Shown: positions 1,343 to 19,388 of the stretch, one piece after another | How positions within the stretch are numbered: position 1 is the stretch's first letter | How the letters are laid out: each line of letters begins with the position of its first letter | Source: an uncultured Rikenellaceae bacterium | Lineage (GTDB): Bacteria; Bacteroidota; Bacteroidia; Bacteroidales; VadinHA17 | Reading direction: 5' to 3' | Length of the DNA stretch: 64,000 bases | NCBI GenBank assembly: GCA_964637415.1 | Contig: CAZWUB010000001.1 | Coordinates: forward strand, 566 to 64,565 | Notes under the pieces: generated by a model | Database searches by the model: none | Seen by the model: only the letters and a program-made list of their open reading frames with translations | What the model was told of the DNA's origin: nothing | Program-made: the position numbers and the translations under genes

Positions 1343-1410
1343 AAGGTAAAGATTACTAAAATTTCCGGGTTGATGAAGTTTTGTTTATTTTTATAACCAA
1401 TCATAATGTC

Positions 1411-2307: not shown

Positions 2308-3340
2308 TTTTTCTGAAATGAACGGATTTGAAAGAATTGATTCTGCCCTGAAAGGCAGAAAGCCCGACAGGGTGCCTGTGATGCTGCATAATTTCATGAT
2401 GGCTGCCAGGGAGCATGGTGTTACTATGGAACAGTACCGCAACAGCCCTGCAGTGATCGCTGATTGTTTTATTTCGGCTGTTGAGAAATATCAGTATGAC
2501 GGGATAGTAGTTGATATTGATACAGTGACACTAGCCGGCGCCGTGGGTGTCCCTGTTGATTTTCCGGTAAATGATCCGGCAAGAACTCATAGCGGAAATC
2601 TTATGAGCCTGGAAGATGTACAGCATCTGAAACCGGTAAGGGTTGAAGATTATAAGTATATTAATATCTGGCTTGAAGCAGTCAGGAAGTTAAGTGATAA
2701 GTTCGAAAACGAAATTTATATCAGGGGGAATTGTGATCAGGCACCATTTTCGCTTGCAAGCATGATGAGGGGTGTCCAGAACTGGATGGTCGATCTGATG
2801 ATGGGGAAGGAGGAACAAATATTTGAACTGCTTGATTACTGCACTGATGTTACATCTCAGTTCATTAAGCTGATGTCGCAGACCGGCTGCCATATGGTTT
2901 CAAATGGCGATAGTCCGGCAGGTCCTGAAATGATATCTGCTGCCTTGTACAGGAAATATGCCCTGCCTTCCGAAAAAATTATAGCTGAAAAGGCTCATGA
3001 AGGGGGAATGGCATATACCTTACATATCTGCGGAAAAACAGACGATATCCTTAAATCAATGCTGTTGACCGGAGCTGATGCAATTGAGCTTGATTATAAA
3101 ACGGATATTTCATCGATATTCAGGTATTTCAATGATAATACAACTTTTATCGGGAACATCGATCCGGCTAATGTTCTGGCATTGGGAACACCGGATCTTG
3201 TAAAGGAGAAAACTCTTGAATTGCTTGAGCTGTATAAGGATTCAAACCGTTTTATATTGAATGCAGGTTGTGCGATACCTCCGGAAACACCACCTGAAAA
3301 TTTAAGGATAATGATCGAAACAGCAAGAAAGTACAGATAA
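2300..3340 (+). CDS. Uroporphyrinogen decarboxylase (URO-D) family protein, MtaA/CmuA-like
   Basis: 347-aa ORF. It shows the N-terminal RPDRVPVM motif and the C-terminal NAGCAIPPETPPENL motif typical of the URO-D superfamily. The ATG at 2300 overlaps the upstream stop by 8 nt. Confidence 0.65.
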   Translation: MYDFSEMNGFERIDSALKGRKPDRVPVMLHNFMMAAREHGVTMEQYRNSPAVIADCFISAVEKYQYDGIVVDIDTVTLAGAVGVPVDFPVNDPARTHSGNLMSLEDVQHLKPVRVEDYKYINIWLEAVRKLSDKFENEIYIRGNCDQAPFSLASMMRGVQNWMVDLMMGKEEQIFELLDYCTDVTSQFIKLMSQTGCHMVSNGDSPAGPEMISAALYRKYALPSEKIIAEKAHEGGMAYTLHICGKTDDILKSMLLTGADAIELDYKTDISSIFRYFNDNTTFIGNIDPANVLALGTPDLVKEKTLELLELYKDSNRFILNAGCAIPPETPPENLRIMIETARKYR

Positions 3341-3417: not shown

Positions 3418-3425
3418 TAAATTTG
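3418..3425 (+). promoter_or_regulatory. Candidate Bacteroidota -7 promoter element (TAnnTTTG) for the seven-gene operon
   Basis: TAAATTTG at 3418-3425 matches the Bacteroides sigma-AB -7 consensus TAnnTTTG. It lies about 37 nt upstream of the ATG at 3462 and overlaps the TTG start proposed by the ORF track, which argues for the ATG start. Confidence 0.35.
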
Positions 3426-3461
3426 CCTGTGTTATTGATTATATTTAAAAATTCAGCTCTT

Positions 3462-4769
3462 ATGATACCGCGTGTCACTTCCTGTCTTATCTCAGTTCTT
3501 ATCGCCTTTTTAATAATTTCGGGATGTAACAGCCGCAGTGCCAGAAATCCTGCAGGTTCCGCAAAACCCGGAACTGTTCAGAAGGAGGCAGAAGTAGTTG
3601 ATAAAGAAGAAGCTCCGGCTCTTGAAAAAGTAATATTCTTCATAGAGAACTCAGGCAGTATGTTTGGTTATGTAAACAGGGCCAATGAGTTCAAGAATTC
3701 ACTTGTGGGCCTTGCCTACCTTCCCGAATTTGATAAAGCATCAAAGAGCTTCTACTTCATAAACGGGAAATCCGACCAGTCAAAAAAATCAGATATCAGA
3801 ATAAACTATGTTGGAAATGATCCGGAAACCCTTAAGAATAATCTTGACCCGGTCTCATTCAATAAAGGTGATGTGAGATACAGTGATCTGAATGAGATGT
3901 TCAGGATCTCTCTCGATTCTGCAAAGGGGAACCAGGTTTCTGTCCTTGTCTCAGACTGTATATATGATGTGGGAGCTGAAAAGGATCCGCTTACATCATT
4001 GAATATCGAGATACATAAAACCCAGCAGGCTTTCCGTAACAGACTTGATAAAGAAGATATACAGACCCTTATAATTAAGGCATTATCAAAATTTGATGGT
4101 GACTATTTTTATGCATCTAAACGTGGATCAGTCAAAATATCAGATGAATACAGGCCTTTCTATATAATATTCTTTGGCAGGACGGAGTTCCTGAATGAAC
4201 TGCTTACCGAAAATAGCATTGGAAGCAAGATTGAAACTGAATTCGAAATTGCCCGTTTCTTTGTTAATGAGGAAAGAAATATCCCTTATCAGGTAGCCCC
4301 TTCCGTAAAACGTATAGGAAGTTTTAAGCTTGATTTTAAAGACAATTTACATCTGAATGATGCTGTGCCTCTCAAAGGAAAATTCCAGTTCACAATAGCA
4401 GCTGATTTCAGCTCACTTCCATTTTCTGATAACTATTATGCATCAGTTAATAATTATGAGTGTCTTTCTTCAAACTTCAGTGTGAGTGAAGTTGAAAAAA
4501 TATCAAAAAAAATACCGGGTATTGAAGGAACTCATCTGATCACGCTTTCAACAGATAAAAATCCTCTTGGGGAACTGGAGCTTGTATTGAAAAATTCAAT
4601 ACCTGAATGGATTATGGAAACTGATACTGATACTGAAGATTTAATTGACAGCAATCATACGTATGGATTCAGTTCACTTACTGATGCGATAAGCGAAGCA
4701 TACGCGTTTGAGAATAATAAGCAGGCAGGCCGGTACCCTGCTGTGTTCAGGATAAGAATATCAAATTAA
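3462..4769 (+). CDS. Lipoprotein with a vWA-like domain carrying a variant MIDAS (operon gene 1)
   Basis: Lipobox LIISGC, with Cys at 3525-3527. The motifs FFIENSGSM (3645-3659, DxSxS with E replacing D), RYSDLNEMF about 80 aa later, and VSVLVSDCIYD about 100 aa later follow vWA beta1/MIDAS spacing. Confidence 0.55.
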   Translation: MIPRVTSCLISVLIAFLIISGCNSRSARNPAGSAKPGTVQKEAEVVDKEEAPALEKVIFFIENSGSMFGYVNRANEFKNSLVGLAYLPEFDKASKSFYFINGKSDQSKKSDIRINYVGNDPETLKNNLDPVSFNKGDVRYSDLNEMFRISLDSAKGNQVSVLVSDCIYDVGAEKDPLTSLNIEIHKTQQAFRNRLDKEDIQTLIIKALSKFDGDYFYASKRGSVKISDEYRPFYIIFFGRTEFLNELLTENSIGSKIETEFEIARFFVNEERNIPYQVAPSVKRIGSFKLDFKDNLHLNDAVPLKGKFQFTIAADFSSLPFSDNYYASVNNYECLSSNFSVSEVEKISKKIPGIEGTHLITLSTDKNPLGELELVLKNSIPEWIMETDTDTEDLIDSNHTYGFSSLTDAISEAYAFENNKQAGRYPAVFRIRISN

Positions 4770-4775
4770 AATAAT

Positions 4776-5225
4776 ATGGGCAAATTCTTTGGTTCAATCT
4801 ATGATGGTATATTTAACATATATCACGAGTCATACCACGAGATCTTTCAGCATCTTTATGATAACGGAGGTTATACAAGGATGGGACTGGCATTTCTGCT
4901 GATACCTCTGACCGGATGGATCCTTTTCTATTTTCTCTGGAAATATCCTTACAGTAAAATATGGCACTGGCTGATCTGGACAGCAGTGATGGTACTCATC
5001 GTGGCGCTTGTTACAAACGGAATAGCAAATTCTGAAATATTCGGTTCAGGCAATCAGACATTGAATGATTTACTTGCCGATACAAGTACCGGTTATGCAG
5101 AATATGCCGGATCGCTGCCTGTAAAATATGTACTTACAAACAGCCTGCTTGCACTTATCCTCAGTTGCATTTATAGCCTGCTGATGAAGCAGTTCAGTAA
5201 AATTCATGTCCATTTACCATTTTAA
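4776..5225 (+). CDS. Small multi-pass inner-membrane protein, no recognisable family (operon gene 2)
   Basis: 149-aa ORF with three hydrophobic helices (LAFLLIPLTGWILFYFLW, WLIWTAVMVLIVALV, LTNSLLALILSCIYSLL). It starts 6 nt after gene 1. Confidence 0.6.
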   Translation: MGKFFGSIYDGIFNIYHESYHEIFQHLYDNGGYTRMGLAFLLIPLTGWILFYFLWKYPYSKIWHWLIWTAVMVLIVALVTNGIANSEIFGSGNQTLNDLLADTSTGYAEYAGSLPVKYVLTNSLLALILSCIYSLLMKQFSKIHVHLPF

Positions 5226-5236
5226 TTCAGGGAATC

Positions 5237-6721
5237 ATGGCAAGAAAACTATATATTTTCGCTATCGGCGGGACAGGATCAAGAGTATTGAAAGCATTAA
5301 CGATGCTTTTTGCATCGGGTGTTAAGATCGGGAATAATTTTGATACTGTTATTCCGGTAATAATCGACCCGGATACAAGTAACGGCGATCTTAATCGTAC
5401 AAAGGATATATTGCGCTTGTACCAGGAGATAAGGAACCAGGTTGACCAGCCTGATGATTTTTTCTCACAGGAGATAAGAACAATAAATGAAATGACTGTA
5501 AGCTCAGCGCTGGTAAATCCGGAATATTTTCAGTTCAAGCTTAAGGATACAGATAACAATACTTTCAACCAGTATATCGGATTTGACAGTATGAGTGACA
5601 ATATTGAGGAAAAGGACGACAAGAACTTTATAAAATCACTCTTTTCTTCACAGAATCTGAAATCCAATCTTGATGTGGGGTTTAAAGGCAATCCTAATAT
5701 GGGGTCGATAATTCTGAATCAGTTCACAAATTCGGATGACTTTAAGAAATTTGGTCAGACTTTCGGGGATGATGATGCCATCTTCATAATTAATTCAATA
5801 TTTGGCGGAACAGGGGCAGCAGGTTTTCCTTTATTGCTTAAAAACCTCAGGGGAAATAAAAGCATGCCAAGGTATGCAAAGATCAGCGTGGCTCCTGTAG
5901 GCGGAATTACATTTCTTCCATATTTCTCGCTGAACAGAAATGATGAAGTGAATGCAGAATCTTTTGAGGAGAAGGCCAAAATTGCAATAGAATATTATAA
6001 CCGGACAATAATTTCACTCAACCAGATCAATACATTATATTTCATCGGGAACAGGGGAAATACAAACCAGGAGGAATATGCTGTAGGAGGGCAGGAGCAG
6101 AGGAATAAGGCTCATTTCCTTGAACTTGCCGGTGCCCTGGCGATCCTTGATTTCTGTAAGGATGTTGATTCTCATAAATCGGGAACTCAGGTGAAGGAGT
6201 TCGGTATTGAACATGATACTCAGAATATTACATTTACAGATCTTAACATAGGTAATGCCAAACTGCTTTCGCCGCCTCTGACAAAGTTCAGGCTTTATAC
6301 AGAGTATCTCGATAAAGGATTATCAAAATCGCTCAATGTGTCGCGCTGGACAAAAAGTAATATCAGGCTGGTGAGGGGTAATAAACAATCGCTTCTGAAC
6401 AGTAATTATTTCAACAGCGCTGAATATAATACACAGATCCTGCCTTTTAATAATCACTTTACAGAATGGATCAGGGAAATGAAGGAAAACAAGCCGGTTT
6501 TCAGTCCTTTTGAGGAGATTTCTTCCGATGATGCGCTTGAACTTGTAAAGGGACAAACTCCAAAAGGAAATAAAAGCTTTAAAGCTCTCGATATTCAGAA
6601 CTGTTTGCTCACTGACAATATCTCAATCCGGAACAGGGAAAAGAAGCATACAATGCTCATCAAGATGTTTGGAAGATCAACAGAAAAGGTATTATTGAAA
6701 CGAAACCTTGTAATTCGCTGA
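5237..6721 (+). CDS. Divergent tubulin/FtsZ-superfamily GTPase-like protein (operon gene 3)
   Basis: T1-like loop IFAIGGTGSRV (5261-5281). T3-like loop GFKGNPNMGS (5678-5707; compare FtsZ GAGANPEVG). T4 tubulin-signature-like loop SIFGGTGAAGFPLL (5804-5824; compare FtsZ GGGTGTGAAPV). The three occur in the canonical order. Confidence 0.65.
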   Translation: MARKLYIFAIGGTGSRVLKALTMLFASGVKIGNNFDTVIPVIIDPDTSNGDLNRTKDILRLYQEIRNQVDQPDDFFSQEIRTINEMTVSSALVNPEYFQFKLKDTDNNTFNQYIGFDSMSDNIEEKDDKNFIKSLFSSQNLKSNLDVGFKGNPNMGSIILNQFTNSDDFKKFGQTFGDDDAIFIINSIFGGTGAAGFPLLLKNLRGNKSMPRYAKISVAPVGGITFLPYFSLNRNDEVNAESFEEKAKIAIEYYNRTIISLNQINTLYFIGNRGNTNQEEYAVGGQEQRNKAHFLELAGALAILDFCKDVDSHKSGTQVKEFGIEHDTQNITFTDLNIGNAKLLSPPLTKFRLYTEYLDKGLSKSLNVSRWTKSNIRLVRGNKQSLLNSNYFNSAEYNTQILPFNNHFTEWIREMKENKPVFSPFEEISSDDALELVKGQTPKGNKSFKALDIQNCLLTDNISIRNREKKHTMLIKMFGRSTEKVLLKRNLVIR

Positions 6722-6724
6722 ACT

Positions 6725-9700
6725 ATGTCTAAAGTATTCAGAATACATGAGGGACAGGATGGAACCGGTTGGTTCATCAGTAATCCCATTTCAAAAAATC
6801 AGCTCCGGACTGTCAAAACAGAAGGGAAGGATGTTGCTACCTCTATCCCCAGTCCGTTTGCAAGGATCGATCTGGTAAAATCAGCGTTTCGTTGGGTGGC
6901 AGATAATGGTATAAAAGGGACGACTGCCCAGCATAAGCTGGTATCGGATGCACTTGATGTGGCTCAGCTGTTTTTCCTTTACCCGAAGTATAAAGATAAA
7001 TACAGGATCATTTCATGGAAACCGGCTGACCGGTTCTTATCACTTGCCGCTGACTCAAACTCAAAGCATTCCAAGCTTTCTGAAACACTTCAGGTCTATT
7101 GGTCCCAGGATGCGGGCGTATATAATTTCGATAAGGTTAAAAGACTTTATTTTATCCTGAATAATTCAAATCAGATCATAGGAGGGACCTCTCCGGCGAC
7201 ATTGTTCTTTTCCGCACCCGATGCAAAAGAAGCAGCATCAGGCCTTAATATAACATGCGGACATGATGTCCTGTTCGATAATGTGTACACCGGTCTGTCG
7301 GAACGCGATGATAAGTCATTTATCGAATACTTATTCCTTTTATCCAGGCAGCCACATTTTCCCGATCTCTTCCCGGAAGTCTATTCATATATGGCTGAGG
7401 TATTTAATTGTCTGGATACTGAATTGCAGTCAAAGATAGCCTCCCTTGATCCATCTGAACTTGATAGTTATTCTCCCTGTCCGGTGCTTGATAATGAGAT
7501 GAATACATGTGAAGTGCTTGGTATAAAACTTGGTGTCAGGCTTGGTAATCCTGCAGAAATTCAAAAGGAAAGCGATTTTATTCTTAAACCCGGATTGCCT
7601 GTCAAGGGATTTGTGCCGCTGGTCCTGCCAAATGACAGATTTACACATAATTGGGCATACACGTCCGGAAATGTTCTGTGGGATCCGAATAATAAGGTCC
7701 CTTACAGGAATGAGAAATTTTACGGTGCATCGAAACTGCCTGTCCAGGGTGATAATTATCCCTGGCTGACTGCCGGTAATTTCTTTGAAGACAAAATAAT
7801 TGAATTACCCTATACTATCGACGGCAAGAAATTTTCCACCTGCGGGTCGACGAGACATTTTCTTCCTCTTACACCCTTATTCTTTGAGTATTTCAGGTCG
7901 GAAGATGTATCGCAGTACCTGCAGCTTACAACTCTGGCCGGGGGAGGAGTGGAGGCTAAGCTTGTTATCCCTGTGAAAGGAGGAGATGTGGTTCTCAAAA
8001 AATCCTGGCACCGCGAAGATATTATTCCAATGGAAATGCATCTGTCAATATTGCCGTTTATTCATGCCCCGGCTGCTGATCTGGATTATACAATAGGGAT
8101 ACAGGATAAGAGATTCAGCAGGGAAAGGGAATTGTCTGTTGAGTGTTATGAATCGGGGAAGCGCATCATTACAGGTAATCCGGTAATCAGGAAACAGGGG
8201 GATGGCAAAACAATTAAAAGTATCTGTTATAAAACAAAATCTTTTGATGCGATAAGGATAGGAAGCGATCCGGTAAACGGATTTATTGTTCCCATGATGT
8301 ACAGGAGTCAGCCTAACCAGCAGGTTTCATTTGCAATTGATTTTGGTACCACAAACACCCATATAGAGTATAAATATGGTGTAAATGCCGAAAACACACT
8401 CGACGTTTCATCTGACAAACCAATGTGGCAATCCCTTATAGACAGAACGAGGGGTGAAACAAAAGAAATAGCCGATGATAATAACTATGAACGGGAGCTG
8501 TTCCCCTATGAGTTCAGTCCATTTTCGAAGTATAAATTCCCTTTCAGGACTGCCCTGACATATAATCAGGACATCAGCTTCATAGAACCTGTCGATGTCT
8601 TTTCCCATACAAATAATTTCTTCCTTTTTGAAAAAATACTGAACCCGACATATCTTCAGTTGCAGACGAAGCTTAAATGGAGCAATTATTCAATGCCTGA
8701 GGATAAGATACTGGTGGAAAGTTTTATAGAGGGCTTAATATACATGGTCCTGTATAAGACATTGCTTCTTAACGGCGATCCACGGAAAACAAGAATAACC
8801 TGGTTTTATCCGGTCAGCATGGATGCATTCGAACAGGGTATATTCTTTGAGGTTTGGCAAAAAGCCTATAAGAAAATTTTCAGGGCAGACGGGACAAATA
8901 ATGTAAGGGCAGTGCCTGAAAGTACAGCCCCATATCTTTTTTACCGGACGGAATATCCCGGATTAAGTCTTTCAATAGATATAGGAGGCGGCTCCTCAGA
9001 TATTGCAGTGTTTAAAAATGCCAGCAATTCGCCGGAGTTCATTTCTTCTGTCAAATTTGCCGGAAATGCCATTTTCGGTGACGGCTTTCCGTACGGGGCC
9101 TTTGCCAATTCTTCGGATAATAATGGTTTCGTTAAAGTATACAGGAACAGAATAGAAAATGCAATAAATCAGAGTACACAGAGGTGGGAAATACTTACTG
9201 ATATTCTCAATAAAAGAAAGGACTCGGCTGATTTCAGCAGTTTCTTATTTTCACTCGAGAATGAGAAAGATCTTATATTCAGTTATACCGATTACCTTAA
9301 GCAGGACAGGAAGCTGAAGCTTCCTATACTCTTGTTTTATGGTGCAATAATTTATTATTCCGCAAATCTTCTAATGAAACAGGGGATGAAGGAAGTACCT
9401 CAGAATATACTTTTCAGCGGAACAGCTTCAAAAACTATCAGGATAATTGATACCAAGCCCGGGAATCCAAATATAACCGATCTTTTCAGGTATTTCTTTA
9501 AGAGGATAAATGGTATTGATAAATCACAGATAAGGATAGCCTTGTCGGAAAATCCAAAGGAAATTACATGCAGAGGGGCCCTGAAAGCTGATATGAACGA
9601 AGATCTGGTCAACTGTCCCATTGTGTTCTGGATCGGAGGAAATGATAATTCAGTATGGAGCAAAGCACTGGATAAGAATTCTGATATAGCTATAACGCCT

Positions 9701-10006
9701 TATTACAGGGATCTGGATCGCGATGGGAATAAATCTCTCATAGAAGGTTCAGTGAATCATTTCTTCAATCTGATGGATGAATACTTCATGTCAGTCAATC
9801 TTGAAGCAAATTTCGGGATCGACAATTCGGCCTGGCTGAAATTTAAGGAGATGCGGTCATTAAACATAACTGATTTCCTTGAACAGGGTCTGCAGGCATT
9901 TTATAAATCAGAATCAAAACATATCGAGGAAGCTTTATTCTTTTATCCCCTGATAGGTATTCTGAATAAGCTTGCTTTTGAACTGGCAAATACTCCTGAT
10001 AAATGA
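6725..10006 (+). CDS. 1093-aa protein with an uncharacterised N-terminal half and a C-terminal Hsp70/actin-fold (ASKHA) ATPase-like domain (operon gene 4)
   Basis: Phosphate-1 motif AIDFGTTNTH (8333-8362). Phosphate-2 motif SIDIGGGSSDIAV (8972-9010). Adenosine-like motif ILFSGTASKT (9407-9436), followed by EITCRGALKA. The spacings of about 213 and 145 aa are close to those in DnaK. The ATG lies 3 nt after the gene 3 stop. Confidence 0.6.
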   Translation: MSKVFRIHEGQDGTGWFISNPISKNQLRTVKTEGKDVATSIPSPFARIDLVKSAFRWVADNGIKGTTAQHKLVSDALDVAQLFFLYPKYKDKYRIISWKPADRFLSLAADSNSKHSKLSETLQVYWSQDAGVYNFDKVKRLYFILNNSNQIIGGTSPATLFFSAPDAKEAASGLNITCGHDVLFDNVYTGLSERDDKSFIEYLFLLSRQPHFPDLFPEVYSYMAEVFNCLDTELQSKIASLDPSELDSYSPCPVLDNEMNTCEVLGIKLGVRLGNPAEIQKESDFILKPGLPVKGFVPLVLPNDRFTHNWAYTSGNVLWDPNNKVPYRNEKFYGASKLPVQGDNYPWLTAGNFFEDKIIELPYTIDGKKFSTCGSTRHFLPLTPLFFEYFRSEDVSQYLQLTTLAGGGVEAKLVIPVKGGDVVLKKSWHREDIIPMEMHLSILPFIHAPAADLDYTIGIQDKRFSRERELSVECYESGKRIITGNPVIRKQGDGKTIKSICYKTKSFDAIRIGSDPVNGFIVPMMYRSQPNQQVSFAIDFGTTNTHIEYKYGVNAENTLDVSSDKPMWQSLIDRTRGETKEIADDNNYERELFPYEFSPFSKYKFPFRTALTYNQDISFIEPVDVFSHTNNFFLFEKILNPTYLQLQTKLKWSNYSMPEDKILVESFIEGLIYMVLYKTLLLNGDPRKTRITWFYPVSMDAFEQGIFFEVWQKAYKKIFRADGTNNVRAVPESTAPYLFYRTEYPGLSLSIDIGGGSSDIAVFKNASNSPEFISSVKFAGNAIFGDGFPYGAFANSSDNNGFVKVYRNRIENAINQSTQRWEILTDILNKRKDSADFSSFLFSLENEKDLIFSYTDYLKQDRKLKLPILLFYGAIIYYSANLLMKQGMKEVPQNILFSGTASKTIRIIDTKPGNPNITDLFRYFFKRINGIDKSQIRIALSENPKEITCRGALKADMNEDLVNCPIVFWIGGNDNSVWSKALDKNSDIAITPYYRDLDRDGNKSLIEGSVNHFFNLMDEYFMSVNLEANFGIDNSAWLKFKEMRSLNITDFLEQGLQAFYKSESKHIEEALFFYPLIGILNKLAFELANTPDK

Positions 10007-10779
10007 GAATACCAGTGTTTTTTGGCTTTAATGCCCTGATCCTTCTGACATGGATCTGGGGCTTATCGGGTTTCCTGATGGGTCTTCTTGTGGGTTGCCT
10101 TGCAGTTTTTCTGTATTCCCGGTATAGCATTTATAGTATACTTGATACTGAAAAGAAGAAATACCTGAAGGATCTGGAGAAAGATACAAGGAATAACCCT
10201 TTTCACAGAGAAGTATTTAAATATATAGGTATAGTGGAGATTTTAAAGAAAAGGAAAAATCTTAAACAGGACCAGCTTATTGCCAAGAATAATACAATAG
10301 CCGAATTAATGGTGCAGAATGAGGAATTATTCGATGATATTGAACAATTAAGGAAAAGACTGATCAACCTGAAGATGAACAAGGAGAATCAGGCTTCGGC
10401 CAGTGAAGGATCTTATGTCAGGTCTCATGAACCGGCAGTAAAAGCTGAAAATCCGGCGGATATCTTTTTTACTATTCCGGAAAGCGATGGTAGTTTCAGG
10501 ATAATTAATGCACAGCATACAAAAGGTGTTGACTGTTTTTATAAAATTATCCCTGACAGGAGTGAGCAGAAAGGCGTCCTTCAGTATTTATCGGGCGATT
10601 ATGATTTACGGGCCCTGGAAAATATTGATTATTATTTAAATCCTGTTTGTGAGATACAGAATATTTCAGGCAGGACATTCGCGAAAAGAATAGTAATGAC
10701 TGAATCCGGAAGTGTGATCAGGAGAAATGATACCTGGCAGATTGAAGAAAATGGAAAAGTAAAAGTAAAACTTGTTTGA
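10003..10779 (+). CDS. Membrane-anchored coiled-coil protein with a small C-terminal beta-rich domain (operon gene 5)
   Basis: N-terminal hydrophobic hairpin (VFFGFNALILLTWIWGLSGFLMGLLVGCLAVFLY), then a heptad-like stretch (IAELMVQNEELFDDIEQLRKRLINLKM). The start overlaps the gene 4 stop as ATGA. Confidence 0.55.
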   Translation: MRIPVFFGFNALILLTWIWGLSGFLMGLLVGCLAVFLYSRYSIYSILDTEKKKYLKDLEKDTRNNPFHREVFKYIGIVEILKKRKNLKQDQLIAKNNTIAELMVQNEELFDDIEQLRKRLINLKMNKENQASASEGSYVRSHEPAVKAENPADIFFTIPESDGSFRIINAQHTKGVDCFYKIIPDRSEQKGVLQYLSGDYDLRALENIDYYLNPVCEIQNISGRTFAKRIVMTESGSVIRRNDTWQIEENGKVKVKLV

Positions 10780-12440
10780 TAATGGTCCTTCTTCAGATAG
10801 TCACTGACACATTAAACACTTCTCAGACAGCTGTTCAGTCTGTTAATCCGTGGTTTGTGGCTGAAATTATCCTTATTATCAGCGTCATAATCTGGCAGCT
10901 CTTACTTTCAGGGAAAATCTATCTGAAAATAAAACAGTTGAAGGAAATATTCACATATCCTTTAAAGGTCAGAAGCGGATATATTAAAAAGAAATACCTT
11001 AACAGGAAAGATACTGCAGTAGATGATATTGTATTTATCAGCGATGAGGAAAGCGTAAAAGAGCAAAGCAGTCAGAACGATGATGATTCTGTCAAAATAG
11101 CAATAACTGAAGCCTATGGCTCAGAAACAATTCTGAGGATAAGAGATTATATAAATACCTATCTTCTTAATAATTACGGAGCTGCGGTCAATTTCAGCAT
11201 AATAAAAGATTTCATCGACCGTGAAGCGGACCTTAAAGATGAAGAAATTTCCAATTCATTGCCCACTCCCTTATATTTAGGTCTTGCTTCCACAATGATC
11301 GGTATTATCTGCGGGTTGTTTGCAATGCCTGCCCTGGGCGGAGGACAGTTTTCACAAGGCATAGATGCCCTGATAAATGGTGTCAAGCTGGCAATGCTGG
11401 GAAGCTTAACAGGTCTCTTATGTACCACAATCCTGACTTCATTTCTTTATAAGAAGGCAAGAAAGTCGTTGCTTGAAGATAAGAATAAACAGATATCCTA
11501 TCTGCAGGCCTGGTTGCTTCCCGAACTTATAAAAGCTGAAGATACAGGAGTGTCGGGACTAAAAGCAAGTCTCGACAGGTTTGCAAGGCTTGCCGGCGGT
11601 ATTTCTGACAATATCCTCAAAGCCTCAGATCAGACGGGCCATAATATCCTGTTGCAACAGGATGTGATCAGACAGGTGGGAGATCTGGATATCCTGAAAA
11701 TCTCAGAAGCAAACCTTGACCTGTTCAGGAGGCTTGAGGAGAATATGGCTTCATTCGGGAAATTCTCTGAATATATTTCACTGATGAGTCAGATCTCAGA
11801 CAACCTTAAGGAATTTGCAGGCCGGACCAGGAATATAGATCAGATAGTTAATCAGATAGACCTCTCGCTTAAAGATAATGCCCGTTTATTACAGTTCCTT
11901 ACATCCCATTTTGAAAAGATTGAACAGGCAGGACTGAATTCCCTGAAGGCTGTGGATATGGCCGACCTTAGTTTCGCTGATGCGATTGATAAGCTTGAAA
12001 AGGAAATAAGTAACAGGCAGAAGGTTCTGAATAATGCTGCTGCAGATGCTGACGGACATGCCAGAGAGGCAATCGGAACTTTACACGAAGAAGTGGATAA
12101 AAGGATTGCCTTGTTGAATAAAAGTGTGGATGATGCCTTTCCAAGGTTTAACCACCTTGATCAGCTTGAACGTCTTCAGGGTATACAGGAGGCCATTTCA
12201 TCAGGCAATGAAGGCATAAATACCCTGATAATGGCTGTTAATAATCTTAATAGTTCTCTTTCAAACAACAGTATTCTGCACAAGCTCGATTCGATTGAAG
12301 ATCATTTGAGTAAAAGAAGGACCAGACCGGAACAGTCTTCGGTTAAGCCGGAACCCGATGTAAAGAACCGGATAATAAGGATCTGGACCAGAGTCCAGAA
12401 ACAGGTAAAGCCTTACTTCAGGATAAGAAAGCGGAAATAA
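10776..12440 (+). CDS. MotA/TolQ/ExbB-family channel-like protein with a long helical cytoplasmic tail, ZorA-like architecture (operon gene 6)
   Basis: One N-terminal TM helix. The TM pair at 11262-11450 (PLYLGLASTMIGIICGLF ... GIDALINGVKLAMLGSLTGLLCTTILTSFLY) resembles the conserved MotA/ExbB helices. A charged helical tail of about 330 aa follows and ends in the basic stretch RIIRIWTRVQKQVKPYFRIRKRK. The start is either TTG at 10776 (overlap TTGA) or ATG at 10782. Confidence 0.6.
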   Translation: MIMVLLQIVTDTLNTSQTAVQSVNPWFVAEIILIISVIIWQLLLSGKIYLKIKQLKEIFTYPLKVRSGYIKKKYLNRKDTAVDDIVFISDEESVKEQSSQNDDDSVKIAITEAYGSETILRIRDYINTYLLNNYGAAVNFSIIKDFIDREADLKDEEISNSLPTPLYLGLASTMIGIICGLFAMPALGGGQFSQGIDALINGVKLAMLGSLTGLLCTTILTSFLYKKARKSLLEDKNKQISYLQAWLLPELIKAEDTGVSGLKASLDRFARLAGGISDNILKASDQTGHNILLQQDVIRQVGDLDILKISEANLDLFRRLEENMASFGKFSEYISLMSQISDNLKEFAGRTRNIDQIVNQIDLSLKDNARLLQFLTSHFEKIEQAGLNSLKAVDMADLSFADAIDKLEKEISNRQKVLNNAAADADGHAREAIGTLHEEVDKRIALLNKSVDDAFPRFNHLDQLERLQGIQEAISSGNEGINTLIMAVNNLNSSLSNNSILHKLDSIEDHLSKRRTRPEQSSVKPEPDVKNRIIRIWTRVQKQVKPYFRIRKRK

Positions 12441-12442
12441 TC

Positions 12443-13111
12443 ATGAAGAAGAATAATATTTTCTGGATTGGTTATTCTGATTTAATGACAAGCATGTTCT
12501 TCATAATGCTTGTTCTTTTTGTGGTGGCTATCGGATACCTGCTTGTAAAAAATGATGAGAACAGTGAGCTGATCGGTGAGCTGACTGTAAGGGAACAGGG
12601 TCTTATTCAGGAAACCGAAAGGCTCCAGAAGCTTCTGAATCTTGAAGAACAATTTGAGCCACTGATCAGCGACAGCAGCTTTTATTACCTTCCTGACTGT
12701 AAGAAATTCATTGTAAAAGACCTTATGGGGATAGAGATATTTGATCCCAACCAGGTGAAGATCAAGAGAGAGTATATTCAGCGTACGATAGCGGTGGGGA
12801 AGAAAATAGACCGCTTTCTTGCTGATTTAAGCCGCAGTAATAAGGGTTTTTCATATCTGCTTGTCATTGAAGGTAATATGGCCAATGATTATCGTCATTC
12901 AAAACCGCCCGACAGGCCGGATTTTTATATCAGAAGCTATTCAAGAGCTCTTGCTGTATATAACCTCTGGCTAAGTGAAGGAATCAATTTCAGGAAATAT
13001 GATGTTGAAGTGATGATCTGTGGCAGCGGTCTTAACGGTCTGTGCCGCGATCCTGTCGAAGAGAACAATAAACGGTTCTCAATTCAGATAATTCCTAAAG
13101 TTTCGAAATAA
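12443..13111 (+). CDS. MotB/ZorB-like protein with a single TM helix carrying the conserved Asp and a C-terminal OmpA-like domain (operon gene 7)
   Basis: N-terminus IFWIGYSDLMTSMFFIMLVLFVV matches the MotB W..YADxMT pattern, with Asp13 at 12479-12481. The C-terminus has an OmpA_C-like pattern (LLVIEGNMAND ... RSYSRALAVYNLWL ... ICGSGLNG ... NNKRFSIQI). It starts 2 nt after gene 6. Confidence 0.7.
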   Translation: MKKNNIFWIGYSDLMTSMFFIMLVLFVVAIGYLLVKNDENSELIGELTVREQGLIQETERLQKLLNLEEQFEPLISDSSFYYLPDCKKFIVKDLMGIEIFDPNQVKIKREYIQRTIAVGKKIDRFLADLSRSNKGFSYLLVIEGNMANDYRHSKPPDRPDFYIRSYSRALAVYNLWLSEGINFRKYDVEVMICGSGLNGLCRDPVEENNKRFSIQIIPKVSK

Positions 13112-13129
13112 CTTTCAATTACACAACTC

Positions 13130-14383
13130 TTATTTTGCTTTGATATTGTAAGCCATCAGAGCATTTGAGTGCCGGAGGTAGAGAATCCCGTTTTTGATCA
13201 CCGGGTGAGCCCAGTATGGTCCCGGAGAACCCTGAGTGACCTTAAAGGTACTGACCAGATCGAATTTCGCACTGCCGGGTTTCAGTAATCCGACATTCCC
13301 GGTCTTTTCTTCATAGATATACAGCATTCCGTCGGCATATATTATTGAGCCTTTATTGTGCCAGTGCTCTTCCCACATCTTTTTACCAGTGTTCCATTCG
13401 ATGCAGCACCAGTTACCGTTCCCGTTATTCAGCCAGTTGGCGCCATAAATATATCCGTTAACAAGTACAACACCTCCGTGATGAACATCGAGGACCTTAT
13501 CAGTCCAGACTGCCTTTGCACTTTTTCCATCTTTTGCTATTTCAATCATCATTCCGCCGGTATCATAGCCTCCTGTTACATAGACCCTGCCATTATTGAA
13601 TAAAGGAGTAACGCATTTTATCAGATCCCTTCCGCCGGCTCGTGCTTCATGTACGACCTTCCAGAGAATATCGCCGTTTGAAGCATCAACACCGAAGGCA
13701 TGTCCCAGGGAAACATTTATTATCATTTTCTTTCCTCCGTAATTCACAAGTATAGGAGAGACATAACCGGGTTTATCATTAAGGCTTGCTGATTTCCACA
13801 GGAGAGTGCCTTTTGTTTTATCGAGAGCTATTGTCATTGTTTCGGGCCCTCCGGGAGAATAGTACACTTTATTCCCGTCTAAAAGCAGTGATTCCGCTAT
13901 ACCCCAGCTGCCGTATGTTCCTTTGTGAAGTTCGCTTGCTTTATATGTCCAGACGATCTTCCCTGTGTTCCCGTCGATGCAGGCGAGGTCTCCGAAGCCG
14001 CTCGTACAGTAAACCCTGTTGCCTTCGACAGTGGGAGTAGCCCGGCTTTCAGGATTGGAGGCTTTCCAGGCCCTTCCGTAAACAGTCTGCCAGAGTATCT
14101 TGCCGTTCATATCAAGGGCATACAGGATATCGTCATTACCGCTGTTACCTGTTGTATAGATCTTATTATTTCCGAATGTTACCGATGAATGTCCTTTGGC
14201 AAGGTCGAGGTTCTCCCAGATCAGTTGCGGTCCGTTTGCCGGCCATGATTTCAACAGACCGGTCTCCGCTGAATTACCGGTTCGGTTCTCTTCACGCCAT
14301 TCGCTGATTTCCTGGGCTGAAAGGAAGCCTGAAAAAATTGATAGAAGGATTATAGTCAGTGTGGTGGTTCTGAATTTCATCAT
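13130..14383 (-). CDS. Secreted PQQ-like/BamB-like beta-propeller repeat protein
   Basis: 417-aa ORF with a signal peptide (LLSIFSGFLSAQE). Repeated G.ILW / G.IVW / GDILWK blades are typical of PQQ-like propellers. Confidence 0.7.
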   Translation of the reverse strand: MMKFRTTTLTIILLSIFSGFLSAQEISEWREENRTGNSAETGLLKSWPANGPQLIWENLDLAKGHSSVTFGNNKIYTTGNSGNDDILYALDMNGKILWQTVYGRAWKASNPESRATPTVEGNRVYCTSGFGDLACIDGNTGKIVWTYKASELHKGTYGSWGIAESLLLDGNKVYYSPGGPETMTIALDKTKGTLLWKSASLNDKPGYVSPILVNYGGKKMIINVSLGHAFGVDASNGDILWKVVHEARAGGRDLIKCVTPLFNNGRVYVTGGYDTGGMMIEIAKDGKSAKAVWTDKVLDVHHGGVVLVNGYIYGANWLNNGNGNWCCIEWNTGKKMWEEHWHNKGSIIYADGMLYIYEEKTGNVGLLKPGSAKFDLVSTFKVTQGSPGPYWAHPVIKNGILYLRHSNALMAYNIKAK

Positions 14384-19247: not shown

Positions 19248-19388
19248 GCATTCCGGATTACGCCTTTATTCGCTGTGCTCATAAGGATTTTTCATTTTCA
19301 TAATTCCTCTCTCAGGTAAACCTGGTTCGGAATTCTGAAAATGAAAAATCCCGTCAGCCTGCCGGCTGACGGGCGTAATCCGGAATGC
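19248..19388. repeat. Nested imperfect palindrome of about 140 nt abutting the 3' end of tRNA-Ser
   Basis: The outer 17-nt inverted repeat is perfect: gcattccggattacgcc (19248-19264) against ggcgtaatccggaatgc (19372-19388). The inner 23-nt inverted repeat matches at 22 of 23 positions: 19285-19307 against 19329-19351. Confidence 0.8.
19341..19374 (-). terminator. Rho-independent terminator of tRNA-Ser
   Basis: On the minus strand the sequence is GCCCGTCAGCC-GGCA-GGCTGACGGG followed by ATTTTTCATTTTC. Confidence 0.6.

What the first reader, a model, noticed from the sequence alone, without database searches (positions are those of the whole stretch)
6725..10006. 1093-aa protein with an unknown 530-aa N-terminal region fused to an Hsp70/actin-fold ATPase domain
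The C-terminal half contains phosphate-1 (AIDFGTTNTH, 8333-8362), phosphate-2 (SIDIGGGSSDIAV, 8972-9010) and an adenosine-like motif (ILFSGTASKT, 9407-9436) followed by CRGALKA. The spacings of about 213 and 145 aa are close to those of the DnaK nucleotide-binding domain.

I see no Hsp70 substrate-binding domain. The first roughly 530 aa match nothing I recognise. Its start codon lies 3 nt after the tubulin-like gene, and its stop overlaps the next start, which suggests stoichiometric co-production. An ASKHA ATPase could act as a filament former, as a chaperone-like switch, or as a sensor.
Basis: partly seen in the sequence, partly recalled or inferred. Interest (0 to 1): 0.75.

Follow-up and report, generated by a model that had tools for sequence, protein, structure and literature searches.

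The report
Actin-fold ATPase partnered with tubulin-like GTPase
This 1093-residue protein belongs to a large, unnamed bacterial family whose C-terminal half is an intact actin/Hsp70-fold ATPase and whose N-terminal half matches no known structure, and it sits in a conserved seven-gene cassette with a tubulin-like GTPase (sometimes fused to it) and a Zorya/flagellar-stator-like membrane motor whose function nobody has described.

Summary

**C-terminal half (about 534-960).** An AlphaFold2 model (pLDDT 87) matches MreB/Mbl, Hsp70 nucleotide-binding domains, BeeR and actin in Foldseek (E about 3e-9, probability 1.0). All five ASKHA motifs are present. D539, G541, E732, D752, G754, G755, D759, G899 and G951 are invariant in 143 relatives of median 33% identity. 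It is therefore an intact ATPase, not a pseudo-enzyme. There is no Hsp70 substrate-binding domain. Profile comparison leans towards MreB/FtsA rather than DnaK.

**N-terminal half (1-530).** It folds confidently from residue 45 but has no significant structural or sequence match, only generic Ig-like sandwiches. Residues 41-60 are the most conserved stretch of the whole protein.

**Family and context.**
- The family has about 1750 clusters at 50% identity and occurs in at least 582 species, mostly Bacteroidota. It has no Pfam, NCBIfam or PADLOC model.
- It lies in a syntenic cassette: lipoprotein, 3-TM protein, tubulin-like GTPase, this protein, TM/coiled-coil protein, ZorA-like and ZorB-like proteins.
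- The tubulin-like gene is fused to it in independent lineages.
- Relatives carry variable secreted proteases and nucleases downstream.

**Best reading.** An FtsZ/FtsA-like NTPase pair serves as the cytoplasmic module of a new stator-coupled envelope system. Whether that system is a conflict system is inferred, not shown.

The parts
3423..4769 (+). g3: 448-aa predicted lipoprotein. The signal peptide and lipobox ISGC suggest the real start is probably the ATG at residue 14. It carries a conserved MIDAS-like ExSxS motif (E75, S77, S79) and an invariant D178. It is a possible vWA-like domain, unverified.
   Evidence: ORF; one hydrophobic N-terminal segment. Present upstream in the same order in 72 of 80 related loci. 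Conserved columns. No Pfam family and no PDB match.
4776..5225 (+). g4: 149-aa membrane protein with three predicted transmembrane segments.
   Evidence: Detectable in 40 of 80 loci by tblastn. No family hit.
5237..6721 (+). g5: 494-aa tubulin/FtsZ-superfamily GTPase-like protein. It has a T1-like IGGTG motif at 10-14 and the signature GGTGAAG at 190-196. It is soluble and is fused to g6 in some lineages.
   Evidence: Pfam Tubulin E = 1.4e-3, below cut-off, for the window protein. All 50 orthologues hit Tubulin (best 8.1e-7) and 45 of 50 hit Tubulin_2. Invariant G190-G196. PDB FtsZ/CetZ-type hits are marginal. Fusions.
6725..10006 (+). g6: the finding, a 1093-aa soluble protein.
6725..6850 (+). 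g6 residues 1-42: a conserved N-terminal segment (R6, H8, G15, W16, F17 and T32 invariant among the closer homologues) that is modelled with pLDDT below 50. It is a candidate partner-docking segment. It lies directly after the tubulin-like domain in the fused forms.
6857..7474 (+). g6 residues about 45-250: an alpha/beta domain with no known structural analogue. It contains the most conserved stretch of the protein (41-60, IPSPFARIDLVKSAFRWVAD) and the loop G153-x-T155-S156-P157.
   Evidence: pLDDT 85-95. No Foldseek match. Conservation.
7475..8314 (+). g6 residues about 251-530: a beta-rich region. The last roughly 130 residues resemble tandem Ig-like beta-sandwiches only generically.
   Evidence: Secondary structure. 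Foldseek best E = 1.7e-3, TM below 0.3, to Ig-domain proteins.
8324..9604 (+). g6 residues about 534-960: the ASKHA (actin/Hsp70-branch) ATPase core with IB-like and IIB-like insertions.
   Evidence: Foldseek against PDB gave 452 hits at E <= 1e-3. The top hits are Mbl/MreB, BiP/DnaK/Hsp70 NBDs, BeeR and actin (E about 3e-9, probability 1.0, TM on target 0.5-0.6). Pfam FtsA, MreB_Mbl, Ppx-GppA and EutA sub-threshold hits across the family. hhalign to MreB 89% and FtsA 80%.
8333..8362 (+). Phosphate-1 motif AIDFGTTNTH (D539 and G541 invariant).
8915..8932 (+). Connect-1 motif P-E732-S-T-A-P. The glutamate is invariant and lies at the position of the Hsp70 and MreB 'EP' motif.
   Evidence: hhalign aligns it to DnaK INEPTAAA.
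8972..9010 (+). Phosphate-2 motif SIDIGGGSSDIAV (D752, G754, G755 and D759 invariant).
9407..9436 (+). Adenosine motif ILFSGTASKT (G899 invariant, S898 97%).
9554..9589 (+). Connect-2 motif PKEITCRGALKA (K945 99%, G951 invariant).
9605..10003 (+). g6 residues about 961-1093: a mainly helical C-terminal extension with a conserved EExLFFYPLIG patch near 1068-1078. It is not an Hsp70 substrate-binding domain.
10003..10779 (+). g7: 258-aa protein with an N-terminal membrane anchor, a coiled coil and a C-terminal beta-rich domain. Its start overlaps the g6 stop (ATGA).
   Evidence: Detectable in 45 of 80 loci.
10776..12440 (+). g8: 554-aa MotA/ExbB/ZorA-like stator subunit with three TM segments and a roughly 300-residue helical cytoplasmic tail.
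   Evidence: PADLOC ZorA2 2.4e-8. NCBIfam ZorA_3 1.4e-3, far below cut-off. MotA_ExbB in 6 of 35 orthologues, best 6.2e-6. Coiled-coil-type PDB hits for the tail and a MotA/TolQ/ExbB-family PDB chain, 8vvi_F, at E = 0.012. TM segments.
12443..13111 (+). g9: 222-aa MotB/ZorB-like subunit. It has a single TM helix with an invariant Asp13 (YSDLMTS) and an OmpA-like peptidoglycan-binding C-terminal domain.
   Evidence: PADLOC ZorB1 4.1e-7. OmpA in 14 of 47 and MotB_plug in 11 of 47 orthologues. D13 invariant. TM segment.

Best explanation
**What it is.** g6 is the founding-type member of a large, unnamed family of cytoplasmic, catalytically intact actin-fold (ASKHA) ATPases. Each carries a family-specific N-terminal module of about 530 residues.

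**How it probably works.**
- It works as an obligate partner of the adjacent tubulin/FtsZ-like GTPase g5. This is a divergent FtsZ/FtsA-like pair that is a single polypeptide in some lineages.
- The conserved N-terminal segment and domain most likely form the interface to g5 or to other cassette components.
- ATP binding and hydrolysis in the C-terminal domain would drive either self-assembly or a conformational switch.
- The pair is the cytoplasmic module of a seven-gene envelope-spanning system. Its membrane part is a proton-driven, peptidoglycan-anchored MotAB/ZorAB-type stator (g8/g9) with a helical cytoplasmic tail, plus membrane proteins g4 and g7 and a periplasmic lipoprotein g3.
- By analogy with Zorya, the stator would couple an envelope event to the NTPase pair, or the reverse. 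The biological role is most likely inter-genomic conflict (anti-phage defence or a related envelope response), because relatives carry variable secreted proteases and nucleases as cargo-like genes.

**Status of each step.**
- Shown: the fold, the intact active site, the family size, the synteny, the gene fusion and the stator homology.
- Inferred: physical interaction of the separate g5 and g6 proteins, polymerisation or switching, coupling to the stator, and the defence role.
For: **Fold and active site**
- AF2 model with pLDDT 87.1 and pTM 0.77.
- Foldseek against PDB: 452 hits at E <= 1e-3, led by Mbl/MreB, Hsp70-family NBDs, BeeR and actin at E about 3e-9.
- Five ASKHA motifs with invariant D539, G541, E732, D752, G754, G755, D759, G899 and G951 in 143 representatives of median 33% identity.
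- Of 44 diverse members, 33 hit Pfam FtsA, 10 MreB_Mbl, 15 Ppx-GppA and 11 EutA.
- hhalign probability is 89% to MreB, 80% to FtsA and 25% to DnaK.

**Family**
- 1639 clusters at 90% identity with E <= 1e-3, none named, no Pfam.
- 1754 representatives at 50% identity, nearly all 1090-1180 aa.
- At least 582 species genomes.

**Partnership with the tubulin-like protein**
- Adjacent with a 3-nt gap.
- Present immediately upstream in 73 of 80 loci.
- Fused tubulin+g6 ORFs P0052, P0054, P0058, P0079 and P0083, re-found on 9 and 3 independent contigs from different sources.
- g5 orthologues hit Pfam Tubulin in 50 of 50 cases.

**Stator**
- PADLOC ZorA2 2.4e-8 and ZorB1 4e-7.
- MotA_ExbB, OmpA and MotB_plug hits in orthologues.
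- Invariant Asp13 in the g9 TM helix.
- Same order and strand in 72 and 66 of 80 loci.

**Conflict-system flavour**
- Flanks are not conserved between loci.
- Downstream same-strand lipoprotein genes vary between trypsin-like, retropepsin-like and transglutaminase-like peptidases and EEP, SNase and NucA nucleases.
- Type I methyltransferases, GmrSD, large DEAD/SNF2 helicases and integrases occur among the neighbours.
- Distribution is patchy beyond Bacteroidota: Leptospiraceae, Gracilibacteria, Chlorobiota, Desulfobacula.
Against: - There is no experimental datum for any component.
- No member of the cassette reaches a curated cut-off in PADLOC, NCBIfam or Pfam, and the ZorA/ZorB similarity is far below NCBIfam cut-offs.
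- The window's own cassette has no hydrolase gene downstream. g9 is followed 18 nt later by a convergent PQQ/BamB-like gene, so the effector argument rests on relatives.
- The hydrolases are predicted lipoproteins, that is periplasmic or surface proteins. This fits secretion, vesicle loading or nutrient scavenging as well as defence.
- The defence-gene neighbours are a minority of flanking genes, and no background rate was computed.
- Whether g6 polymerises cannot be read from a monomer model.
- The interface role of the N-terminal region is inferred only from conservation, low pLDDT and position in the fusions.
- Three Cytophagales loci have g6-g8 without g3-g5 immediately upstream.
Confidence: 0.6

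Rival explanations
1. **Cytoskeletal, membrane-remodelling or export machine rather than immunity.** g5 and g6 form GTP- and ATP-dependent filaments at the inner membrane. Together with the stator-like motor and the g3 lipoprotein they would reshape the envelope, or drive the export, surface display or vesicle packaging of the linked lipoprotein proteases and nucleases. The purpose could be scavenging of extracellular DNA and protein, or attack on neighbours.
For: - Tubulin-fold and actin-fold NTPases are classic polymer formers. The best structural matches are the filament formers MreB, Mbl, BeeR and actin.
- Makarova and Koonin proposed membrane remodelling for FtsZ-like operons with vWA and OmpA-like genes (PMC2875224).
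- The associated hydrolases all carry lipoprotein signal peptides.
- 5:2 motors power secretion and gliding in Bacteroidota (GldLM). This last point rests on established knowledge, not on a test here.
Against: - The hydrolase genes are variable and are missing in the window's clade. Dedicated secretion substrates would not usually be optional.
- Patchy phylogenetic spread and non-conserved flanks are more typical of accessory conflict modules.
- No secretin, translocon or T9SS-type signal was identified.
Confidence: 0.22
2. **Hsp70-like chaperone or switch acting on the tubulin-like protein.** In this reading g6 does not polymerise. Its ATPase cycle opens and closes the four-subdomain clamp, which controls the assembly state of g5 or of the ZorA-like tail through the N-terminal module. 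This parallels the chaperone-type thresholding proposed for NTPase-centred conflict systems.
For: - Hsp70 NBDs are as good structural matches as MreB.
- Kaur et al. 2020 describe conflict systems that combine tubulin and HSP70-family proteins as regulated assemblies (PMC7159879).
- The large non-ASKHA N-terminal module suits a client- or partner-binding role.
Against: - There is no substrate-binding domain and no DnaJ or GrpE in the cassette.
- hhalign to DnaK reaches only 25% probability, against 89% for MreB.
- The DO-GTPase and GAP1 core of the Kaur systems is absent: no Walker A motif occurs in any cassette protein.
Confidence: 0.13
3. **Small-molecule ASKHA enzyme.** Here g6 would be a kinase or a Ppx/GppA-type phosphatase that makes or destroys a nucleotide or polyphosphate signal for the system.
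For: - Of 44 family members, 15 give weak Pfam Ppx-GppA hits (best 3.9e-4). Others hit EutA and Hydantoinase_A.
- The strongly conserved pocket-like residues in the N-terminal domain (D78, D129, G153, T155, S156, R194) could belong to an unrecognised catalytic site.
Against: - All those Pfam hits cover only the generic phosphate-2 motif.
- None of the top 50 Foldseek hits is a sugar kinase or a Ppx-type enzyme.
Confidence: 0.05

Closest known systems
FtsA-FtsZ pair of the bacterial divisome
   Same: - An actin-fold ATPase and a tubulin-fold GTPase are encoded by adjacent, translationally coupled genes and act at the inner membrane.
- Pfam FtsA is the most frequent weak sequence hit of the g6 family (33 of 44 members). 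hhalign to E. coli FtsA gives 80% probability.
   Different: - Gene order is reversed (tubulin-like first).
- g6 is 1093 aa with a 530-residue extra N-terminal module.
- g6 scores 14.5 bits against a cut-off of 31.8 for the Pfam FtsA model. g5 is below the Tubulin cut-off and has no FtsZ_C domain.
- The cassette is accessory and occurs in genomes that presumably have their own divisome (not checked here). It is linked to a stator-like motor, not to cell-division genes.
MreB/Mbl, BeeR and other bacterial actins
   Same: - They are the best structural matches and the best sequence-level PDB hits (BeeR E = 0.12, MreB5 E = 1.8).
- hhalign to MreB gives 89% probability over the phosphate-2 hairpin.
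- They share the four-subdomain ASKHA architecture.
   Different: - Sequence identity is only about 12%.
- g6 has large insertions, an extra N-terminal half and a C-terminal helical extension.
- Polymerisation is untested.
Hsp70/DnaK nucleotide-binding domain
   Same: - Same fold and the same five motifs. Foldseek E about 4e-9 to BiP and DnaK NBDs.
   Different: - g6 has no substrate-binding domain or lid, and the cassette has no J-protein or GrpE.
- hhalign probability is only 25%.
- There is no Pfam HSP70 hit in any of 44 members.
Zorya anti-phage systems (ZorAB plus ZorC/D, ZorE or ZorF/G)
   Same: - A MotA-like subunit with a long helical cytoplasmic tail, and a MotB-like subunit with a TM aspartate and a peptidoglycan-binding domain, are encoded together with soluble cytoplasmic proteins.
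- The module is accessory and patchily distributed.
   Different: - None of ZorC, D, E, F or G is present.
- ZorA and ZorB similarity is far below the NCBIfam cut-offs (17.6 against 250 bits, 19.8 against 400 bits).
- The cytoplasmic partners are a tubulin-like GTPase and an ASKHA ATPase, which no described Zorya type has.
- The g8 tail is shorter (about 300 residues).
FtsZ-like (FtsZl1 / Pfam Tubulin_2) operons of Makarova and Koonin 2010
   Same: - A divergent tubulin/FtsZ-like GTPase sits in an operon with an OmpA-like protein, membrane proteins and (possibly) a vWA-like protein, and membrane remodelling was proposed (PMC2875224).
- 45 of 50 g5 orthologues give weak Tubulin_2 hits.
   Different: - The operons listed there, including the Bacteroides examples, have different gene content: a P-loop GTPase, kinases and true COG2304 vWA proteins, with FtsZl1 proteins of 900-1100 aa.
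- No ASKHA protein or MotA-like gene is mentioned there.
- The vWA nature of g3 is unproven.
DO-GTPase / tubulin / HSP70 conflict systems (Kaur, Burroughs, Iyer and Aravind 2020)
   Same: Both share the theme of tubulin-family and HSP70-family NTPases as regulated assembly modules, with variable peptidase and nuclease effectors (PMC7159879).
   Different: - The defining DO-GTPase and GAP1 components are absent (no Walker A motif).
- In those systems the tubulin and HSP70 themes are separate, lie mainly in Firmicutes and Actinobacteria, and use bona fide HSP70 with GrpE and DnaJ.

Membership tests
ASKHA superfamily (acetate and sugar kinases / Hsp70 / actin) | Duplicated RNase-H-like beta-beta-beta-alpha-beta-alpha-beta-alpha core forming a two-lobed nucleotide cleft | tested here: met
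   AF2 model with pLDDT 87. Foldseek against PDB gave 452 hits at E <= 1e-3, all of the top 50 being MreB, Hsp70 NBD, BeeR or actin, with probability 1.0 and TM on target 0.45-0.60.
ASKHA superfamily (acetate and sugar kinases / Hsp70 / actin) | Phosphate-1 (DxG), phosphate-2 (DxGGG) and adenosine (G-rich) motifs in the right order | tested here: met
   D539-F-G541-T-T, D752-I-G-G-G and S898-G899. D539, G541, D752, G754, G755 and G899 are 100% conserved in 143 representatives.
ASKHA superfamily (acetate and sugar kinases / Hsp70 / actin) | Connect-1 catalytic carboxylate or amide, and connect-2 glycine helix | tested here: met
   E732 (100%) aligns with the DnaK 'NEPTAA' glutamate. P944-K-E-x-T-C-K/R-G951, with G951 100% conserved.
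ASKHA superfamily (acetate and sugar kinases / Hsp70 / actin) | ATP binding and hydrolysis | not testable with these tools
   Needs a biochemical assay of wild type against D539A, E732A and D752A.
Hsp70 / DnaK chaperones | Nucleotide-binding domain followed by a beta-sandwich substrate-binding domain and a helical lid | tested here: not met
   After the ASKHA core only about 130 mostly helical residues remain. No Pfam HSP70 hit in the window protein or in 44 family members. hhalign to DnaK covers 48 columns at 25% probability.
Hsp70 / DnaK chaperones | Cognate J-domain and nucleotide-exchange partners | tested here: not met
   No DnaJ or GrpE family in any cassette protein.
FtsA / MreB / ParM-type bacterial actins | Match to the family model above the curated threshold | tested here: not met
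   Window protein scores 14.5 bits on Pfam FtsA against a cut-off of 31.8. Family-wide hits (FtsA 33 of 44, MreB_Mbl 10 of 44) cover only the phosphate-2 region. PDB profile search best E = 0.12.
FtsA / MreB / ParM-type bacterial actins | Nucleotide-dependent polymerisation into protofilaments | not testable with these tools
   A monomer model only; no multimer prediction was available.
Zorya anti-phage system (types I-III) | ZorA and ZorB matching curated models | tested here: not met
   NCBIfam antiphage_ZorA_3 17.6 bits against cut-off 250, and ZorB1 19.8 against 400. PADLOC ZorA2 2.4e-8 and ZorB1 4.1e-7 are partial matches. This supports homology to the MotAB/ZorAB class, not membership of a Zorya type.
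Zorya anti-phage system (types I-III) | Type-specific partners ZorC+ZorD, ZorE or ZorF+ZorG | tested here: not met
   No PADLOC hit for g3-g7 except a marginal PDC-M02B hit of g5 (E = 1.1e-3, 40 residues).
MotAB/ExbBD/TolQR/ZorAB class of 5:2 ion-driven stators (for g8/g9) | MotA-like polytopic subunit plus a single-TM partner with a conserved protonatable Asp, with or without a peptidoglycan-binding domain | tested here: met
   g8 has three TM segments and MotA_ExbB hits in 6 of 35 orthologues. g9 has a single TM helix with invariant D13, with OmpA hits in 14 of 47 and MotB_plug in 11 of 47 orthologues. The 5:2 stoichiometry and ion flow were not testable.
FtsZl1 (Tubulin_2) / vWA operons | Tubulin_2-type FtsZ-like protein with a COG2304 vWA protein and a divergent P-loop GTPase | tested here: inconclusive
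   g5 orthologues hit Tubulin_2 in 45 of 50 cases but below cut-off. g3 has only an ExSxS motif and a single weak vWA-TerF hit among 48 sequences. No P-loop GTPase is present.
DO-GTPase conflict systems (Kaur et al. 2020) | One or two DO-GTPases plus GAP1 | tested here: not met
   No Walker A motif in any cassette protein and no GTPase family hit other than tubulin-like. No GAP1 model was available, so GAP1 itself was not tested.

The most novel reading that the evidence does not exclude
The cassette is a previously undescribed class of envelope-spanning immune or conflict machine.
- A Zorya-like proton-driven stator is wired to a tubulin-fold/actin-fold NTPase heterocomplex, which is a single polypeptide in some lineages.
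- That complex polymerises or switches on demand.
- In most lineages the system deploys interchangeable periplasmic proteases and nucleases.
- The N-terminal 45-250 domain of g6 would be a new fold that couples the two cytoskeletal NTPase types.
Probability: 0.35. Interest if true: 0.85.

Novelty: new variant of a known kind. Interest (0 to 1): 0.7.

Why it matters
- **An obligate tubulin-fold/actin-fold pair outside cell division.** These are the two great cytomotive NTPase families. A conserved, sometimes fused pair of them would be a new way for bacteria to use these folds.
- **Size of the gap in annotation.** The family is large: about 1750 clusters at 50% identity and at least 582 species, including cultured Flavobacterium, Polaribacter, Parabacteroides and Draconibacterium. 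It has no model in Pfam, NCBIfam or PADLOC. Naming its ATPase domain and its cassette would improve the annotation of thousands of 'hypothetical' genes.
- **A new output for ZorAB-type stators.** Linkage to a ZorAB-like stator offers an output module different from the nucleases of Zorya. This bears on the open question of how 5:2 motors transmit envelope signals into the cytoplasm.
- **Directly testable.** The variable protease and nuclease genes in relatives give a handle for deciding between defence, secretion and scavenging. Cultured hosts exist, and point mutants are obvious: g6 D539, E732 and D752; the g5 GGTGAAG motif; g9 D13.

Tried and rejected
- **Direct family assignment of g6.** Pfam, NCBIfam, PADLOC and PHROGs gave nothing above cut-off.
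- **PDB sequence searches.** Single-sequence and profile searches gave only sub-threshold hits: BeeR E = 1 and 0.12.
- **Foldseek of the N-terminal half.** Searches against PDB and BFVD found only generic Ig-like hits. No analogue of residues 45-250 was found.
- **Is the cassette already described?** Literature searches found none that describes it: tubulin+ZorA+Hsp70, Zorya+tubulin+actin-like, ZorA+ZorB+FtsZ, ZorAB+Bacteroidota+tubulin, and Tubulin_2/FtsZl1. The Makarova and Koonin supplement lists different Bacteroides operons. The Kaur et al. systems lack these genes.
- **g3 as a vWA protein.** Not confirmed.
- **Phage or plasmid origin.** No phage hit. The only 'plasmid' hit is a 1.77-Mb Prevotella replicon without annotation.
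- **SrfB lead.** Six of 44 members weakly hit Pfam SrfB, and SrfB is also about 1000 aa. I could not obtain an SrfB sequence or the match coordinates. Eight members examined in detail showed hits only at the phosphate-2 motif. It remains untested.
- **Composition.** The cassette has no distinct GC content, so there is no compositional sign of recent transfer in this genome.
- **Placement relative to single E. coli sequences.** hhalign against DnaK, MreB and FtsA aligns only 34-48 columns. The lean towards actin-like families is therefore suggestive, not a phylogenetic placement.

Full report
**1. The observation**

The ORF at 6725-10006 (+) exists and encodes 1093 residues. The upstream tubulin-like ORF ends at 6721, three bases before the ATG. 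The stop codon overlaps the start of the next ORF as ATGA.

All seven ORFs from 3423 to 13111 are on the + strand, with gaps or overlaps of at most 11 nt. This is what a single operon looks like.

**2. What the protein is**

*Direct searches.* Family searches give nothing above threshold.
- Pfam shows only FtsA at E = 0.047 and a DUF at E = 0.0037. NCBIfam, PADLOC and PHROGs show nothing.
- PDB sequence searches reach only E = 1, or E = 0.12 with a profile. The best hit is the bacterial actin BeeR at the DIGGG motif.

*Family size.* The protein nevertheless has a very large family.
- 1639 clusters at 90% identity score E <= 1e-3. None carries a name or a Pfam domain.
- 1754 representatives at 50% identity score E <= 1e-3, and 906 of them E <= 1e-30. 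Almost all are 1090-1180 aa and match end to end.
- At least 582 species genomes encode a relative. Most are Bacteroidota. A few are Leptospiraceae, Gracilibacteria, Chlorobiota and Desulfobacula.

*C-terminal half.* An AlphaFold2 model built on 87 homologues is confident (pLDDT 87.1, pTM 0.77).
- Foldseek against the PDB returns 452 hits at E <= 1e-3. The top 50 are Mbl/MreB, BiP/DnaK/Hsp70 nucleotide-binding domains, BeeR and actin (E about 3e-9, probability 1.0, TM on target 0.45-0.60, about 460-500 aligned columns). Residues about 534-960 are therefore an ASKHA domain of the actin/Hsp70 branch, with IB-like and IIB-like insertions.
- All five ASKHA motifs are present. In 143 representatives of median 33% identity, D539, G541, E732, D752, G754, G755, D759, G899 and G951 are 100% conserved.
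- Among 44 diverse members, 33 hit Pfam FtsA (best 3e-6), 15 Ppx-GppA, 11 EutA, 10 MreB_Mbl, 7 MutL and 6 SrfB. All of these are actin-fold ATPase families (my own knowledge). All hits I could inspect lie on the phosphate-2 region.
- hhalign of the family profile against single E. coli sequences gives MreB 89%, FtsA 80% and DnaK 25% probability. The domain therefore leans towards bacterial actins rather than Hsp70, on short alignments.
- There is no substrate-binding domain. The last roughly 130 residues are mostly helical.

*N-terminal half.*
- Residues 1-42 are conserved but modelled at low confidence.
- Residues about 45-250 form a confident alpha/beta domain, and residues about 251-530 a beta-rich region.
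- Foldseek of a separate model of residues 1-532 (pLDDT 86) finds nothing better than E = 1.7e-3 and TM below 0.3 in the PDB, and only comparable generic Ig-like hits in BFVD.
- Residues 41-60 are the most conserved 20-residue block of the whole protein, more so than the ATPase motifs. Residues 61-80, 141-160 (with G153-x-T155-S156-P157) and 341-360 follow. This half is functionally constrained and is structurally new as far as these libraries show.

**3. The surroundings**

tblastn of the seven window proteins against 80 related genome loci shows the same order and strand. Counts of loci with each gene:

| Gene | Loci out of 80 |
|---|---|
| g3 | 72 |
| g5 | 73 |
| g6 | 80 |
| g8 | 72 |
| g9 | 66 |
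| g4 and g7 | 40 and 45 (short and fast-evolving) |

*Components.*
- **g5** is a tubulin/FtsZ-superfamily GTPase-like protein. All 50 orthologues hit Pfam Tubulin and 45 hit Tubulin_2. The signature GGTGAAG is invariant.
- **g8** is MotA/ExbB/ZorA-like, with three TM segments and a roughly 300-residue helical tail.
- **g9** is MotB/ZorB-like, with an invariant Asp13 in its single TM helix and an OmpA-like domain.
- **g3** is a predicted lipoprotein with a MIDAS-like ExSxS motif, but no family could be assigned.
- **g4** has three TM segments, and **g7** has an N-terminal membrane anchor followed by a coiled coil.
- **g5 and g6** are soluble.

*Gene fusion.* In five clusters (P0052, P0054, P0058, P0079, P0083) g5 and g6 are one polypeptide of 1550-1660 aa. 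P0058 was re-found on 9 contigs and P0083 on 3, from independent ENA, JGI and Logan samples, inside otherwise identical cassettes. Two further long representatives, P0124 and P0138 (1558 and 1534 aa), have the size and profile-match pattern expected of such fusions, but this was not verified. This is strong genomic evidence that g5 and g6 act as a complex.

*Flanks.*
- Flanking genes are not conserved between loci.
- In most relatives outside the window's own clade, one to three small lipoprotein genes follow g9 on the same strand, and they vary between loci:

| Downstream gene type | Loci |
|---|---|
| Trypsin-like peptidase | 19 |
| Retropepsin-like aspartyl peptidase | 19 |
| EEP nuclease | 10 |
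| Transglutaminase-like | 8 |
| SNase | 6 |
| NucA/Endonuclease_NS | 6 |

- A beta-CASP enzyme also occurs downstream in places.
- Type I methyltransferases, GmrSD, very large DEAD/SNF2 helicases and integrases occur among the neighbours of some loci.
- The window's cassette has no such hydrolase. A convergent PQQ/BamB-like gene follows g9 after 18 nt.
- The protein is absent from the phage collection, and from plasmids apart from a 1.77-Mb Prevotella replicon.
- GC content of the cassette is like the rest of the window.

**4. How it most likely works**

*Shown.* g6 is a soluble, catalytically intact actin-fold ATPase with a conserved novel N-terminal module. It is genetically locked to a tubulin-like GTPase, up to fusion, and to a MotAB/ZorAB-class stator.

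*Inferred.*
- g5 and g6 form an FtsZ/FtsA-like complex at the cytoplasmic face of the membrane.
- The low-confidence but conserved N-terminus, which directly follows the tubulin-like domain in the fusions, and the 41-60/153-157 surface are the best candidates for the interface.
- ATP and GTP turnover drives assembly or a switch.
- The stator, anchored to peptidoglycan and carrying a helical cytoplasmic tail as in Zorya, couples the envelope to this module.
- The variable secreted proteases and nucleases, the non-conserved flanks and the patchy distribution favour a conflict or defence role. I give this reading about 0.45 on its own.

*Rivals.* They are a membrane-remodelling or export machine, a non-polymerising Hsp70-like switch, and a small-molecule enzyme. 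Each is set out with its tests in the rival explanations.

**5. Comparison with what is known**

- The closest functional analogy is FtsA-FtsZ.
- The closest structural relatives are MreB/Mbl, BeeR and Hsp70 nucleotide-binding domains.
- The closest system-level analogues are three:
  - Zorya;
  - the FtsZ-like/vWA/OmpA operons of Makarova and Koonin (PMC2875224);
  - the tubulin/HSP70-containing conflict systems of Kaur et al. (PMC7159879).
- The cassette fails the defining features of each. It has no Hsp70 substrate-binding domain. No family model is matched above cut-off. ZorC-G are absent. There is no DO-GTPase or GAP1, and no P-loop GTPase. Details are in the membership table.
- I found no paper in the searchable library that describes this cassette. 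This is absence of evidence within that library only.

**6. Verdict**

- The domain is a new, very divergent family of a known superfamily.
- The seven-gene system is a new variant of stator-coupled accessory systems, and its function is unknown.
- Confidence by claim:

| Claim | Confidence |
|---|---|
| ASKHA fold with intact active site | about 0.95 |
| g5-g6 physical complex | about 0.8 |
| Part of one machine with the stator | about 0.75 |
| Conflict or defence role | about 0.45 |

- Interest 0.7.

Noticed in passing
Related loci, e.g. L012:11000-12301, L023:16046-18126, L041:16399-18082, L053:16946-18877, L082:16882-18023, L085:12425-15590: In most relatives outside the window's clade, the ZorB-like gene is followed on the same strand by one to three small lipoprotein genes. 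These vary between loci: trypsin-like, retropepsin-like or transglutaminase-like peptidases, and EEP, SNase, NucA or beta-CASP nucleases. The window's own cassette has none.
   Followed up: partly
window 3423-4769 (g3): A predicted lipoprotein with a nearly invariant E75-N-S77-G-S79 motif and an invariant D178, which resemble a vWA MIDAS site. No vWA family or structure match could be obtained. The listed TTG start is probably too far upstream; the ATG at residue 14 precedes the signal peptide.
   Followed up: partly
window 6725-6850 (g6 residues 1-42): The N-terminal 42 residues are conserved across the family (for example W16 is invariant) yet are modelled with pLDDT below 50 in both models. 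This is typical of a segment that folds only on a partner. In the fused forms it follows the tubulin-like domain directly.
   Followed up: partly
g6 family members (alignment A8): Six of 44 diverse members give weak hits (best E = 0.0012) to Pfam SrfB. This is the roughly 1000-residue middle protein of the widespread srfABC operon, whose function is unknown. The similar size raises the possibility of a distant full-length relationship. The match coordinates could not be obtained.
   Followed up: no
L062:9025-9858, L063 and L072 upstream of the g6 homologue: In three Cytophagales loci the g6-g7-g8 genes are not preceded by the lipoprotein, TM and tubulin-like genes. A thiolase gene lies upstream, and in L062 a tyrosine-recombinase-like gene sits directly upstream. 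The cassette may be split or rearranged there.
   Followed up: partly
L082:1-5810 (minus strand, next to the fused-form cassette): A 1742-aa DEAD/ResIII helicase and an SNF2-family protein lie directly upstream of the cassette, and an IS66 TnpB fragment lies downstream. The neighbourhood looks like a defence island or a mobile region.
   Followed up: no
window 1381-3340: Upstream of the cassette, on the same strand, lie a xylose-isomerase-like TIM-barrel gene and a uroporphyrinogen-decarboxylase-family (URO-D) gene whose ORFs overlap. They are not conserved next to the cassette in other loci and appear unrelated to it.
   Followed up: partly
window 13130-14383 (minus strand): A PQQ/BamB-like beta-propeller protein with a signal peptide converges on the end of the cassette, only 18 nt from the g9 stop. 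No room is left for a separate terminator on each strand.
   Followed up: no
window 19387-19476 (minus strand): A tRNA-Ser (anticodon CGA) is the only RNA gene detected in the 64-kb window by ARAGORN and Rfam.
   Followed up: yes
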